From the IMG/VR virus record IMGVR_UViG_3300032218_003260: a stretch of 64,000 bases of DNA. One strand, 5' to 3'. Every line of letters begins with the position of its first letter. The first letter of the stretch is position 1. Of the stretch, positions 25,604-27,917 are shown piece by piece. The notes under the pieces were generated by a model, which did not search any database, was not told where the DNA came from, and saw only the letters and a program-made list of their open reading frames with translations. This DNA comes from a virus (Duplodnaviria > Caudoviricetes). The translations under genes and the position numbers were made by a program.

Positions 25604-26764
25604 TTAATAAATAACGGTCAATGAAACAGCGCAGTCGGTGAGCGGGAACAGGTACACCCCGCGCGCAGAGAATTGCCTTGGGCGTTCCAGCCGCATGACT
25701 ACGCGGCCAGAGTGCAAAAGTGTCGCTACGACATAGGGCCCGGTTGACGAAACCGAAGCGTCGAGTGAGATAACATAATCTGTACCGGGGACAGGCACTT
25801 GCACAGACGCGCCATGCGGCCCTGTAGCGCCAGTGATTCCCAGCCTAGCGGCTTCTTTGCCGCCGTCAATAACGCGCTCCAGCGACGCCACATCTTCACG
25901 CGGCACAAAAGCCCAATGTACGGGCTTTGTAAACTCACCAAGATACCCAGCACGCTCAATTTGCTTGCGCTGCTCTTCGCTGATGACTGCCGCGATCTCA
26001 AGATGCCGCGCGGCGATGTTTATGTACGCCAGCAGCGCCGGAGAAATAGCCGCGTAGTCTTCAGCCGTGTTTGTGCCGGTGATTGCCGGCGAGTTGCGCG
26101 GCCTGACCTGAAAGAACTCGCCTGTCTCCAAAAAGACAAAATGTGTGTTGGTGCCGTTGTCGAACGAGATGCCACGATACGCCGGGCCTAGCTCGCCACT
26201 GGGCAGCTTGTCACGAAAGTTGACAAGGCTAGCCGACAACGCAGATGCCATTGTGTCGGTGAACTGAGCCGGAGCGAACACCCGAGACAGCATGCGCTCG
26301 TTGTAAATCTCAGGCGCAACCGGGTGCACAATTAGCGGATTTTTTGGGGACTCCGCGACCTCTGCGATTACGGCATCAAAGATATCTTGAGCCGGCACGT
26401 CCGCATCAGCCAGCCCGTTCTCGATCAGATCGGCGAACAGAACGAGCGCCGCGCTAACAATTGCCGGCGCCGTTTGATCAGTGGCGCCGTATTGTTTTGC
26501 GACTGTGATACCGCGCGAAAGAGCCGCCTGCGTAATTGAAAAAGGTACTGCGCCCCAGTTGATGTTGCCCGAAACTTGAGCAAACTGCCAAAGCGCTTTA
26601 AAGAACGCCGGATCTTTCTTCGGCGTGCAGGACTGGCGAAACAATTCGAGCGTGCAGGCCAGTAGCCGCAACTGCCCAAGGTCGTCCGTTGTGCGAAATT
26701 TACCTAGAAACTCCCGAACATGAACTGATGGTTTTGGTGATTTGTCCACTGAATACTCCGTCAC
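25604..26764 (-). CDS. hypothetical protein
   Basis: 386 aa ORF, no motif recognised. Confidence 0.75.
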   Translation of the reverse strand: MTEYSVDKSPKPSVHVREFLGKFRTTDDLGQLRLLACTLELFRQSCTPKKDPAFFKALWQFAQVSGNINWGAVPFSITQAALSRGITVAKQYGATDQTAPAIVSAALVLFADLIENGLADADVPAQDIFDAVIAEVAESPKNPLIVHPVAPEIYNERMLSRVFAPAQFTDTMASALSASLVNFRDKLPSGELGPAYRGISFDNGTNTHFVFLETGEFFQVRPRNSPAITGTNTAEDYAAISPALLAYINIAARHLEIAAVISEEQRKQIERAGYLGEFTKPVHWAFVPREDVASLERVIDGGKEAARLGITGATGPHGASVQVPVPGTDYVISLDASVSSTGPYVVATLLHSGRVVMRLERPRQFSARGVYLFPLTDCAVSLTVIY

Positions 26765-27917
26765 AAGCGTTTAAAAGTGTCATCACGTTCGCTTTGAAAG
26801 TGCCTAAAATGTTGTGTGCTGTGCCGTTATGGCTATTCACATATGACGCAAAAGAAGGTTGAACGTGACTGTCGATAAGGACAGCGTGAAAATTCGGGGC
26901 GCGCTCGCTGTCTGAAAGCGCGCACCGAGCCTGAAGAAACAACTGCAGGCCGCGCATAGCGTCGCCTATAAACAACACTACGCCACATTGTGTTTGACAT
27001 AGCTGACGTACCTGCTCCGCAAACACGAGAAAGTCTACGTACGTCGCAGCACCAAACGCGGCGCCGATCTCTGCTCCCGGACCATCAGGATAGATGTGCC
27101 CAGCCATCTCGCCTAGCTCGACGTGCACGGTGGCGGGAACACCCAGCGTGTAAGCAGAGTGCAGCAAGCTGCGCTCCGTTGTCGCCCGCGGAGAATACGC
27201 CCAGCGCCCGGCGGCCTCGCCGTAACCAAGACCCTGATTGGCGGCTAGCCGCGCAACGTAGTTCAAGTCGTGCGTCATGCCGCGCTCTGCCAAGCGCACA
27301 TCGGCCACCAGCCCAGCGCCGGTGGTGGCAACAGACGTGACATACTTCTTGCGCAGCAGCTCAACTGCGGCGATACCCGCGCCAGAATGAATCGCCGGCG
27401 CCGAAATAAATAACATTACCGGCTGGTTTTCAACGCGAGCTGTGTGAATCAGGCTTGCGGCGTTGACGTGAACTTCTTTGATTAAACACAGCGCATCGGC
27501 AATCTCTGGCGGCATGGCGTCACACGGCGGTGTCGCCGCTCGAAGGGTGTCGAAAACAGGGAACGCGCTGTTTAAGCGTTGGGGTAATACAAGCGCGCCG
27601 GGATGTTCAGTGGTCGGCGTGCGCAGCATCGGTCCGCTGCCCCACAAGAGCCAGTCAGCATTGACATGCGTGTGACTGAGGATCTGCGCCAGCAGTTGCG
27701 CAGACACCGCGTACTGCCGCTTGAATACTTTGCCAAGATGCGTTGATTCTAGTTCAATGGCGCGCGCAAACGACGGCACATTGTTATTAAAAAGAGTCGC
27801 GCACAGATACTCCAACCTCTGCAGCCATGGCTGGTCCGCGTGCGCGATCTTGCGCCTGCGCAATTCGCGCCTCTGCCGCTGCCGATCGCTCAGGTGACTG
27901 CGTTTTGGTCTTGGCAT
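26700..27917 (-). CDS. CI-like HTH fused to deoxyhypusine-synthase-like (DHS-like NAD-binding) domain
   Basis: HTH ending VNADWLLWGSGPM; then PVMLFISA, VTSVATTGAG..AD, GLGYGEAAGR, SLLHSAYTLGVPATVHVELG, ATYVDFLVFAEQV, GVVLFIG. Confidence 0.65.
   Translation of the reverse strand: MPRPKRSHLSDRQRQRRELRRRKIAHADQPWLQRLEYLCATLFNNNVPSFARAIELESTHLGKVFKRQYAVSAQLLAQILSHTHVNADWLLWGSGPMLRTPTTEHPGALVLPQRLNSAFPVFDTLRAATPPCDAMPPEIADALCLIKEVHVNAASLIHTARVENQPVMLFISAPAIHSGAGIAAVELLRKKYVTSVATTGAGLVADVRLAERGMTHDLNYVARLAANQGLGYGEAAGRWAYSPRATTERSLLHSAYTLGVPATVHVELGEMAGHIYPDGPGAEIGAAFGAATYVDFLVFAEQVRQLCQTQCGVVLFIGDAMRGLQLFLQARCALSDSERAPNFHAVLIDSHVQPSFASYVNSHNGTAHNILGTFKANVMTLLNACDGVFSGQITKTISSCSGVSR

What the first reader, a model, noticed from the sequence alone, without database searches (positions are those of the whole stretch)
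26700..27917. CI-type HTH fused to a deoxyhypusine-synthase-like domain
Seen: a repressor-like HTH ending in the classic NADWLLWGSGPM, followed not by an S24 peptidase but by a domain matching bacterial DHS-like proteins motif by motif. The segment usually found between the GAG..HD motif and the GLG.GEA motif is deleted, and His/Lys positions look altered. Established: DHS-fold proteins bind NAD+ and polyamines and oligomerise. Inference: a phage transcription factor that senses NAD+ or spermidine status, for example NAD depletion by Thoeris/SIR2-type defences or host nutritional state. I know of no described regulator with this architecture.
Basis: partly seen in the sequence, partly recalled or inferred. 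Interest (0 to 1): 0.75.

Follow-up and report, generated by a model that had tools for sequence, protein, structure and literature searches.

The report
Phage HTH fused to dead DHS-like domain
A core gene of a large group of uncultured ~200-kb phages joins a repressor-type DNA-binding head to a worn-down copy of a bacterial sugar-pathway enzyme fold. That domain most likely now only pairs two copies of the protein, rather than sensing NAD or polyamines as first proposed.

Summary
Window 26700-27917 (-) encodes a 405-aa protein with four parts: a basic N-terminal arm, an Xre/CI-type HTH ending in NADWLLWGSGPM, a short linker, and a DHS-fold domain (Z 16-19 to AgrE, 3c2q and deoxyhypusine synthases).

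The fusion is not an artefact. 125 fetched homologues, down to about 30% identity, carry both halves, and the fused C-domains form one clade.

The "bacterial DHS-like proteins" are the uncharacterised GSU2086 family, which is linked by operon and by fusions to ADP-heptose synthesis. The phage domain scores far below that family's cut-off. It has lost a conserved ~20-residue loop and about 13 conserved polar residues, including two His and a Lys. What it keeps maps to a predicted homodimer interface (ipSAE 0.59, best control 0.00).

The gene lies mid-operon. In all six loci examined it sits between a Rep_1-like protein without HUH histidines and an unknown 386-aa protein, mostly with overlapping ends.

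Best reading: a dimeric DNA-binding protein with an exapted, inactive enzyme domain, working in a replication-associated three-gene module. NAD/spermidine sensing is unsupported but not excluded. First readers of this scan noted the same fusion on other genomes.

The parts
26700..27917 (-). Whole gene, 405 aa (P0001): basic arm, HTH, linker and GSU2086/DHS-like domain
   Evidence: ORF list and translation. 47 homologues at 30-98% identity. 92 clusters at E<1e-30.
27837..27917 (-). N-terminal basic arm, residues 1-27 (MPRPKRSHLSDRQRQRRELRRRK...). It overlaps the 3' end of the upstream gene in another frame.
   Evidence: Homologues that begin at the same point keep the basic character while the sequence diverges (alignment A1). 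ATG with an AAGGG motif upstream. Many gene calls for homologues start later, so the true start is not certain.
27627..27836 (-). Xre/CI-type helix-turn-helix domain, residues 28-97, ending in NADWLLWGSGPM
   Evidence: Profile hits to 4ich, 186 CI and 434 repressor. Hits to tandem-HTH_3 proteins. Fold Z 7.9-9.6 to SPC32H Rep, DdrO, C.AhdI and TP901-1 CI. W89, G93 and G95 are invariant.
27588..27626 (-). Short, low-confidence linker, residues 98-110
   Evidence: pLDDT 51-69. The conserved LxLPxxLxSSFPxFDT that follows already aligns to the N-terminal segment of GSU2086 proteins.
26733..27587 (-). Divergent GSU2086-type, DHS-fold domain, residues 111-395
   Evidence: NF052581 E 2e-28 but 99.9 bits against a cut-off of 250. 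hhalign 99.9%. VIA Z 16-19 to AgrE, 3c2q and DHS. Foldseek.
27267..27272 (-). Site of the ~20-residue deletion (between residues 216 and 217) relative to GSU2086 proteins
   Evidence: hhalign and MAFFT alignments. The lost loop carries GSU2086 T110, E112, V114, G121, F123 and G124, each conserved at 96% or more.
27030..27125 (-). HVELGExxxH...GAExGAAxGAATYVDF segment, residues 265-296: the most conserved stretch and the core of the predicted dimer interface
   Evidence: Invariant or 90%+ positions G269, H274, G285, A286, G289, A290, Y293 and D295. Interface residues 265-276 and 281-296 in the homodimer prediction.
27787..28908 (-). Upstream partner gene: Rep_1-like (rolling-circle initiator fold) protein. 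It has four Cys and a conserved Tyr283, but E-x-R where the HUH histidines would be. It overlaps the HTH gene by 131 nt.
   Evidence: Atlas features 0.96 to Rep_1 clusters. Pfam Rep_1 hits are weak (3 members, best E 0.044). The AF2 model (pLDDT 84) matches AFDB 'Replication protein' entries at E 5e-9 to 1e-3. Present upstream of the HTH gene in all 6 loci.
25604..26764 (-). Downstream partner gene: conserved 386-aa protein of no known family. It overlaps the HTH gene by 65 nt.
   Evidence: 47 homologues. No Pfam or PDB family. Present downstream of the HTH gene in all loci with sequence there.
31508..31844 (-). Probable operon boundary: a 13-bp GC-rich terminator (31813-31844) and a ~300-nt leader with three hairpins or inverted repeats, including GGATTATG-N4-CATAATCC at 31530-31549. 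About 15 tightly packed minus-strand genes follow, down to 25316.
   Evidence: No link to the HTH protein has been shown.

Best explanation
The gene encodes a sequence-specific DNA-binding protein. An Xre/CI-type HTH, preceded by a basic arm, is held as a dimer (possibly a higher oligomer) by a C-terminal domain that descends from a GSU2086-family enzyme of the DHS-like NAD/FAD-binding fold. That domain has lost the ancestral active-site loop and most conserved polar residues. It has kept, and tightened, the subunit interface. So it acts as an exapted pseudoenzyme that supplies dimerisation, the role the C-terminal domains play in CI-type repressors.

The protein is made together with two invariant neighbours, usually from overlapping reading frames: an HUH-less Rep_1-like protein and an unknown 386-aa protein. 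All three lie inside the phage's early replication and recombination operon. It therefore most likely works with them at a specific DNA site, either as an origin- or site-recognition subunit or as the regulator of that module. It is unlikely to be a lysis-lysogeny switch.

Shown: the domain identities, the conservation of the fusion, the loss of ancestral residues and the synteny. Inferred: dimerisation (prediction only), DNA binding, inactivity, and cooperation with the neighbours.
For: Domains. HTH evidence. DHS-fold and GSU2086 homology.

Loss of ancestral residues. In a joint alignment of 104 phage-type and 50 GSU2086 sequences, GSU2086 positions conserved at 86% or more (H69, H100, E103, T110, E112, V114, G121, F123, G124, D186, S227, P232, E233, K237, N244, D262, R284, R292) are deleted or unconserved in the phage family. 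The positions conserved at 90% or more in the phage family are A226, G229, G231, G233, E234, G269, H274, G285, A286, G289, A290, Y293, D295 and G312.

Dimer. Most of those retained positions (A226, G229, G269, H274, G285, A286, G289, A290, Y293, D295) fall within the interface of the predicted homodimer. ipSAE is 0.59 against a best control of 0.00. That mark was reached by 20 of 30 proteins solved as pairs of one chain and by 1 of 23 solved as single chains. The runs share at least 94% of contacts and partner pLDDT is at least 88. DHS-family complexes are solved, so part of this pass may reflect likeness to known structures.

Synteny. The Rep_1-like gene, the HTH gene and the A4-family gene are conserved in that order in the window and in L001-L005, down to the most distant members. 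Reading frames overlap at most junctions. L006 is cut off at its 5' end and shows the last two genes.

Origin and position. The fused C-domains form one clade (SH-aLRT 100). The gene is mid-operon and co-directional with primase, helicases, PolA, SbcCD and UvsX.
Against: No experiment exists, and no operator or binding site was identified.

The phage family keeps several invariant polar residues of its own (D206, E234, E270, H274, D295, Y192, T199, C385). These could form a ligand or metal site rather than only an interface.

H265, H274 and D295 are also conserved in GSU2086 enzymes, so part of an ancestral functional site may survive.

The identity of the GSU2086 active site is itself inferred from conservation, not from a structure with ligand.

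The dimer is a prediction that used my own alignment.

No interaction with the neighbours was tested.
Confidence: 0.5

Rival explanations
1. Ligand-sensing regulator. The C-terminal domain still binds a small molecule, and occupancy changes DNA binding, coupling phage gene expression or replication to host metabolic state. Candidates are NAD(P)(H), as in the DHS-like superfamily, or a heptose phosphate or ADP-heptose-type nucleotide sugar, as GSU2086 ancestry suggests.
For: The DHS-like fold is a nucleotide-binding fold: DHS, AgrE-NAD, sirtuins and transhydrogenase dIII all appear. The family keeps invariant polar residues D206, E234, E270, H274 and D295 and a TTGAG motif aligned to the DHS TTAGG NAD loop (Pfam DS alignment of residues 153-207). 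GSU2086 proteins are fused to SIS, HAD and cytidylyltransferase domains and sit between hldE and gmhA. One distant relative of the three-gene module is followed by an HldE-like gene (L005).
Against: The two loops aligned to the nucleotide-binding loops are poorly conserved across the phage family (G172 0.43, P174 0.28, G179 0.65, G200 0.54, A205 0.47), against 0.94-0.98 in GSU2086. A conserved ~20-residue loop and about 13 conserved polar residues are lost. The retained invariants lie on the predicted dimer interface. There is no spermidine-related context at all, and no HldE-like gene in the window, L001 or L002.
Confidence: 0.25
2. Lysogeny-type CI repressor. The protein maintains a prophage or sets immunity, with the DHS-like domain replacing the S24 or oligomerisation domain.
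For: CI-type HTH with the WLLxGxGPM ending. Best N-domain structural matches are phage repressors (SPC32H Rep, TP901-1 CI, 186 CI). The two-domain layout with a linker resembles CI.
Against: The gene is in the middle of a long co-directional operon of replication genes. There is no divergent cro-like gene or switch region. It overlaps a Rep-like gene at its 5' end. In a scan of one genome per 185,579 species, the only fused copy was on a 5-kb MAG contig that also carries the phage neighbour, and none lay in a bacterial chromosome. No integrase was seen in the 64-kb window, though not all ORFs were scanned.
Confidence: 0.07
3. DNA-tethered active enzyme. The C-domain is a divergent but working enzyme, for example one that modifies a nucleotide, DNA or a partner protein, and the HTH brings it to specific DNA sites.
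For: The family has its own invariant polar residues and a phage-specific invariant Cys385. The DHS-like superfamily includes protein-modifying enzymes (DHS, sirtuins).
Against: Loss of most residues conserved in the nearest enzyme family, including both His and the Lys. No catalytic Lys/His pair equivalent to DHS was identified. Pfam DS scores far below threshold.
Confidence: 0.08
4. Artefact: a frameshift or assembly join of two separate genes.
For: None found.
Against: A single uninterrupted ORF. The same fusion appears in 125 independently assembled proteins from many samples and sources. One AF2 model covers both domains.
Confidence: 0.01

Closest known systems
GSU2086 family proteins (NCBIfam NF052581), standalone ~320-aa bacterial proteins of unknown biochemical function
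   Same: Clear homology over residues ~111-385: hhalign 99.9%, E 7e-33, and NF052581 E 2e-28. Same motif order. Shared GLGYGEA, P.TVHV.G...H and GAA.GAA.Y.DF segments.
   Different: The phage domain scores 42-100 bits against a cut-off of 250. It lacks a ~20-residue conserved loop and about 13 conserved polar residues. It has a 4-residue insertion (AExG) in the interface helix. It is fused to an HTH. No cellular member found here carries an HTH; their fusions are to SIS, HAD or cytidylyltransferase domains.
Deoxyhypusine synthase (PF01916) and the AgrE/ArgZ C-terminal and LOR/SDH (3c2q) domains of the DHS-like NAD/FAD-binding fold
   Same: Same fold: Z 16-19, 207-227 aligned residues, rmsd 3.2-3.8 A. 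Foldseek E about 1e-6. The TTGAG segment aligns with the first third of the DS profile.
   Different: 10-14% identity. Pfam DS gives 13.4 bits against 27. No equivalent of the catalytic Lys/His was recognised. No polyamine or eIF5A/EF-P context.
CI/Xre-type phage repressors and controller proteins (186 CI, 434 repressor, SPC32H Rep, TP901-1 CI, C.AhdI)
   Same: Five-helix HTH domain with the W-L-L-x-G-x-G ending, a basic N-terminal arm, and a linker to a C-terminal oligomerisation domain.
   Different: The C-terminal domain is neither an S24 peptidase nor any known repressor oligomerisation domain. The gene lies mid-operon beside a Rep-like gene rather than at a genetic switch. No Pfam HTH model reaches E 1 or better for the window protein.
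Transcription factors built on enzyme folds that sense nucleotides (Rex, NadR, NrtR, BirA). Recalled from general knowledge, not tested here.
   Same: Same general design: a DNA-binding head joined to an enzyme-derived nucleotide-binding domain.
   Different: Different folds: Rossmann (Rex), NMNAT/kinase (NadR), Nudix (NrtR). No DHS-like or GSU2086-type example was found in the literature library. Ligand binding is unproven here.

Membership tests
Xre/CI-type HTH (lambda-repressor-like DNA-binding domain) | Five-helix fold with a helix-turn-helix | tested here: met
   AF2 helices at 30-43, 47-53, 58-65, 73-82 and 87-92, pLDDT 83-90. Z 9.6 to 5d50 Rep, 8.0 to DdrO and C.AhdI, 7.9 to TP901-1 CI, over 64-73 residues at rmsd 2.1-2.8 A.
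Xre/CI-type HTH (lambda-repressor-like DNA-binding domain) | Sequence-profile match to HTH_3 / Phage_CI_repr | tested here: inconclusive
   Pfam HTH models do not hit the window protein at E 1 or better. The family profile hits 4ich at E 0.002, 186 CI at 0.066 and 434 repressor at 0.56. It also hits tandem-HTH_3 proteins at E 2e-24.
Xre/CI-type HTH (lambda-repressor-like DNA-binding domain) | Sequence-specific DNA binding | not testable with these tools
   No operator was identified. The inverted repeat at 31530-31549 is unique in the window and unlinked to the protein.
LexA/CI repressors with S24 autopeptidase | C-terminal S24 peptidase domain with a Ser-Lys dyad | tested here: not met
   No Peptidase_S24 hit. 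The C-terminal domain has the DHS fold.
Deoxyhypusine synthase (PF01916) | Pfam gathering threshold | tested here: not met
   13.4 bits, E 0.048, against a cut-off of 27. Only profile positions 19-74 align.
Deoxyhypusine synthase (PF01916) | DHS-like NAD/FAD-binding fold | tested here: met
   Z 17.2 (6dft), 16.7 (8put) and 16.1 (9iex) with 223-227 aligned residues. Foldseek E 1.7e-6.
Deoxyhypusine synthase (PF01916) | Catalytic Lys and His, and NAD-binding residues | tested here: inconclusive
   No residue-level structural alignment to DHS was available. By alignment to GSU2086, the conserved His and Lys positions are replaced. My mapping to DHS residues rests on memory of the human DHS motifs.
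GSU2086 family (NF052581) | NCBIfam curated cut-off of 250 bits | tested here: not met
   99.9 bits for the window protein, 42-74 bits for three distant homologues and no hit for a fourth (P0141). True members score 296-394 bits.
GSU2086 family (NF052581) | Family-invariant residues and the conserved loop (P0050 numbering: H69, H100, E103, T110-G124, D186, S227, E233, K237, N244, D262, R284, R292) | tested here: not met
   Deleted or unconserved in 104 phage-type sequences.
GSU2086 family (NF052581) | Homology (common descent) | tested here: met
   hhalign probability 99.9%, E 7e-33, 229 aligned columns. NF052581 E 2e-28.
Rep_1 rolling-circle initiators (the upstream neighbour, not the finding itself) | HUH metal-binding histidines and a catalytic Tyr on the Rep fold | tested here: not met
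   Fold matches to AFDB 'Replication protein' entries at E 5e-9 to 1e-3. Tyr283 is invariant, but the HUH position reads E-x-R in all 22 sequences. Pfam Rep_1 best E is 0.044.

The most novel reading that the evidence does not exclude
The exapted GSU2086-type domain still binds a host metabolite, either a nicotinamide or ADP-sugar nucleotide such as NAD(P)(H) or an ADP-heptose-pathway intermediate. Through this the HTH dimer would gate the activity of the HUH-less Rep-like partner at a phage origin. A large clade of ~200-kb phages would then time DNA replication by the host's envelope-sugar or redox state. That would be a new class of metabolite-gated replication or transcription factor.
Probability: 0.15. 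Interest if true: 0.8.

Novelty: new variant of a known kind. Interest (0 to 1): 0.55.

Why it matters
HTH proteins that dimerise or sense through borrowed enzyme folds are a known design. I found no described case that uses a DHS-like/GSU2086 fold. This one is also a core, strictly syntenic gene of a large, entirely uncultured group of ~200-kb phages.

Together with the HUH-less Rep-like protein and the unknown third protein, it defines a three-gene module inside the replication operon. The module's function is open. It could be a new kind of origin-recognition or replication-control complex.

The work also gives a lead on the uncharacterised bacterial GSU2086 family. Its operon position between hldE and gmhA, and its fusions to SIS, HAD and cytidylyltransferase domains, point to ADP-heptose-type sugar-nucleotide synthesis.

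If the domain turns out to bind a metabolite, it would be a compact new sensor scaffold.

Tried and rejected
Searches that found nothing
- No nucleotide or protein match in 50,697 deposited phage genomes for the region or the protein. PolA is only about 25% identical to any cultured phage.
- phmmer of the single protein against PDB sequences found nothing.
- The ESM Atlas feature search gave no usable hit for the protein or its downstream neighbour.
- No paralogue of either domain exists in the window.
- The downstream 386-aa neighbour has no convincing Pfam or PDB relative.
- Foldseek of the upstream neighbour's model against PDB gave nothing significant. Only AFDB gave Rep hits.
- Literature searches for the architecture found no paper. 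A search for the AgrE structure paper did not return it.

Operator search
- Inverted repeats within 60 nt across the window show nothing near the gene.
It has no second copy within 3 mismatches.
- The site at 10173 shows only a direct repeat, not an inverted one.
- The analogous leader in L001 has a different 9+3+9 palindrome.
- No operator can be assigned.

HldE link
- An HldE-like gene follows the three-gene module in L005, but none is present in the window, L001 or L002. I treat this as a one-off.

Tools unavailable
- No whole genome is held for this window.
- The single complex-prediction job went to the homodimer, so binding to the two neighbours and NAD co-folding were not tested.
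Full report
**What is there**

Window 26700..27917 on the minus strand is one uninterrupted ORF of 405 aa. It starts with ATG and has an AAGGG motif 5-7 nt upstream. The window is part of a large phage genome:
- PolA fused to a UDG-like domain, primase, a DnaB-like helicase, a second helicase, SbcCD, UvsX and a large terminase are present.
- There are three tRNA genes.
- Nearly all genes are on the minus strand.
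- Homologues of the finding sit on contigs of 198-207 kb.
- No cultured phage is close.

**N-terminal half**

Pfam HTH models do not reach E 1 or better for the single sequence. A profile of 29 family members (A1) does better:
- It hits the HTH regulator 4ich (E 0.002), phage 186 CI (0.066) and 434 repressor.
- In the 1.8-billion-protein search it hits proteins made of 5-6 tandem HTH_3 domains (E about 1e-22 to 2e-24).

The AF2 model (pLDDT 81; 83-90 over residues 31-90) has five short helices. Residues 28-108 superpose on the SPC32H Rep repressor (Z 9.6), DdrO and C.AhdI (Z 8.0) and TP901-1 CI (Z 7.9).

Upstream of the HTH lies a strongly basic arm (residues 1-27). Homologues that start at the same point keep its basic character while the sequence diverges. 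Many gene callers start later, so the exact start is uncertain. In the window there is no alternative ATG before the HTH.

**C-terminal half**

Pfam DS gives only a hint (E 0.048), but the fold is unambiguous:
- VIA-align against 48,161 representative chains puts AgrE (Z 18.8), the LOR/SDH protein 3c2q (17.8) and three deoxyhypusine synthases (17.2, 16.7, 16.1) on top.
- Sirtuins (about 12), ThDP-enzyme middle domains and transhydrogenase dIII follow. Together these are the DHS-like NAD/FAD-binding superfamily.
- Foldseek agrees.

- Standalone ~320-aa relatives (A2) align to the phage family with hhalign probability 99.9%, E 7e-33.
- They are bona fide members of NCBIfam NF052581, "GSU2086 family protein" (296-394 bits).
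- The window protein hits that model at E 2e-28 but with only 99.9 bits against a cut-off of 250. More distant phage homologues score 42-74 bits, and one gave no hit.

GSU2086 itself lies between hldE and gmhA in Geobacter sulfurreducens, where it is annotated as a hypothetical protein in a sugar biosynthesis operon (PMC5585712). Family members are fused to SIS, HAD and cytidylyltransferase-like domains. The cellular family therefore points to heptose-nucleotide metabolism, not polyamines. This is an inference from context.

**What has changed in the phage domain**

I aligned 104 phage-type C-domains with 50 GSU2086 proteins.

Lost:
- A ~20-column loop between TTGAGLVAD and DLNYVARLAA is missing. 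In GSU2086 it carries T110, E112, V114, G121, F123 and G124, each conserved at 96% or more.
- H69, H100, E103, D186, S227, P232, E233, K237, N244, D262, R284 and R292 (92-98% conserved in GSU2086) are unconserved or absent.
- The two loops after strands 1 and 2 are relaxed (0.28-0.65, against 0.94-0.98). From my memory of the human enzyme, and consistent with the Pfam DS alignment of residues 153-207, these correspond to the NAD loops of DHS.

Retained:
- Positions conserved at 90% or more in the phage family are A226, G229, G231, G233, E234, S250, P261, G269, H274, G285, A286, G289, A290, Y293, D295, L297 and G312.
- Two are phage-specific: C385 and G391.

**Dimerisation**

- The verdict was that the model supports binding: ipSAE 0.59 against a best control of 0.00.
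- That mark was reached by 20 of 30 proteins solved as pairs of one chain and by 1 of 23 solved as single chains.
- The runs share at least 94% of contacts, and partner pLDDT is at least 88.
- The interface is residues 201, 226, 229, 265-276, 281-296, 322-333, 351 and 354. This takes in most of the residues the phage family conserves most strongly.

DHS-family oligomers are solved, so part of the pass may be likeness to known structures. The counts hold only roughly because my own alignment was used. The pattern of a relaxed pocket and a conserved interface is the main reason I favour an exapted dimerisation module.

**The fusion is real and old**

- 47 homologues at 30-98% identity carry both halves.
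- The exhaustive search gives 92 clusters (50% identity) at E<1e-30, essentially all full length.
- 125 of the 200 proteins fetched have both domains. The few strong C-only hits are truncated calls.
- The fused C-domains form one clade against 67 cellular GSU2086 proteins (SH-aLRT 100).
- In a scan of one genome per species, the only fused copy was on a 5-kb MAG contig that also carries the phage neighbour. All other hits were ordinary standalone GSU2086 proteins, mostly from Gemmataceae and other Planctomycetota. That enrichment may partly reflect the search patterns used.

**Context**

The gene sits in the middle of a tightly packed minus-strand operon:
- The operon begins after a strong terminator (31813-31844) and a ~300-nt leader.
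- It runs through a SEC-C-motif protein and a MazG-like protein, then the three genes discussed below, then two tRNA genes flanking a T5orf172/MUG113 protein, and on into SbcCD.

The upstream gene (27787-28908) overlaps the HTH gene by 131 nt. The downstream gene (25604-26764) overlaps it by 65 nt. The same three genes, in the same order and mostly with overlapping ends, occur in every relative examined:
- L001, 48% identity.
- L002, 30% identity.
- L003-L005, the most distant family members.
- L006, which is cut off at its 5' end and shows the last two genes.

The upstream protein is Rep_1-like:
- Language-model features score 0.96 to Rep_1 clusters.
- Pfam Rep_1 hits are weak.
- An AF2 model (pLDDT 84) matches AFDB "Replication protein" entries at E 5e-9 to 1e-3.
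- Its four Cys and Tyr283 are invariant, but the HUH position reads E-x-R in all 22 sequences.

The downstream protein has no recognisable family.

**Interpretation**

I read the protein as a dimeric, sequence-specific DNA-binding protein whose C-terminal domain is a dead GSU2086-type enzyme kept for its interface. It is co-produced with a Rep-like protein and a third protein as a replication-associated module (confidence 0.5).

The sensor idea survives at about 0.25 with a corrected ligand range: NAD(P) or heptose-type nucleotide sugars rather than spermidine. Three things keep it alive:
- Several invariant polar residues remain.
- H265, H274 and D295 are shared with GSU2086 enzymes.
- One distant relative of the module (L005) is followed by an HldE-like gene, though none is present in the window, L001 or L002.

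A lysogeny repressor is unlikely given the mid-operon position and the absence of chromosomal copies.

No operator could be assigned. The 31530 palindrome is unique in the window, and the 10173 site shows no inverted repeat.

**Novelty**

I found no description of an HTH plus DHS-like/GSU2086 architecture in the held literature and no copy in deposited phage genomes. First readers of this scan noted the same fusion on four windows of other genomes. Those notes are unverified and I do not count them as evidence.

I class the finding as a new variant of a known kind: an HTH protein with an exapted enzyme-fold oligomerisation or sensor domain.

**Limits**

- No genome is held for this window.
- Binding to the neighbours and NAD co-folding were not tested.

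Noticed in passing
window 27787-28908 (-): Rep_1-like (rolling-circle initiator fold) protein with an invariant four-Cys cluster and Tyr283, but E-x-R in place of the HUH histidines. It is always directly upstream of the HTH gene, usually overlapping it.
   Followed up: partly
window 25604-26764 (-): Conserved 386-aa protein of no known family (47 homologues; invariant C-terminal PRxFSxRGVYLFP motif). It is always directly downstream of the HTH gene, usually overlapping it.
   Followed up: partly
window 24034-25144 (-): A T5orf172/MUG113-domain protein (24427-25074; these domains occur in homing-endonuclease-like proteins) lies between tRNA-Gln (25074-25144) and tRNA-Met (24034-24109). It looks like a mobile insertion into a tRNA cluster.
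   Followed up: no
window 31508-31844: A 13-bp GC-rich terminator is followed by a ~300-nt leader with three perfect short hairpins or palindromes: GCCGGCATT/AATGCCGGC, GTAAGTCC/GGACTTAC and GGATTATG-N4-CATAATCC. The last lies 20 nt before the first gene of the operon. The analogous leader in L001 (1402-1570) has a terminator and a different 9+3+9 palindrome.
   Followed up: partly
L005 2711-4225: In one distant relative, the three-gene module is followed by a PfkB plus cytidylyltransferase (HldE-like) gene. This echoes the hldE-GSU2086-gmhA operon of Geobacter. No such gene is present in the window, L001 or L002.
   Followed up: yes
proteins P0147, P0156, P0188, P0195 (cellular GSU2086 relatives): The uncharacterised GSU2086 family is fused to cytidylyltransferase-like, SIS and HAD domains. 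These match the folds of HldE-C, GmhA and GmhB, which suggests the family is an unrecognised enzyme of ADP-heptose-type sugar-nucleotide synthesis.
   Followed up: partly
window 29622-29930 and 30308-30841 (-): A MazG-like NTP pyrophosphohydrolase and a SEC-C-motif protein lie upstream in the same operon. Both are also present in L001 and L002.
   Followed up: partly
loci L007-L023: The cellular GSU2086 proteins that share the phage-type interface motifs were found mostly in Gemmataceae and other Planctomycetota MAGs. This is a possible hint to the phage's host or to the donor lineage. It may be biased by the search patterns.
   Followed up: no
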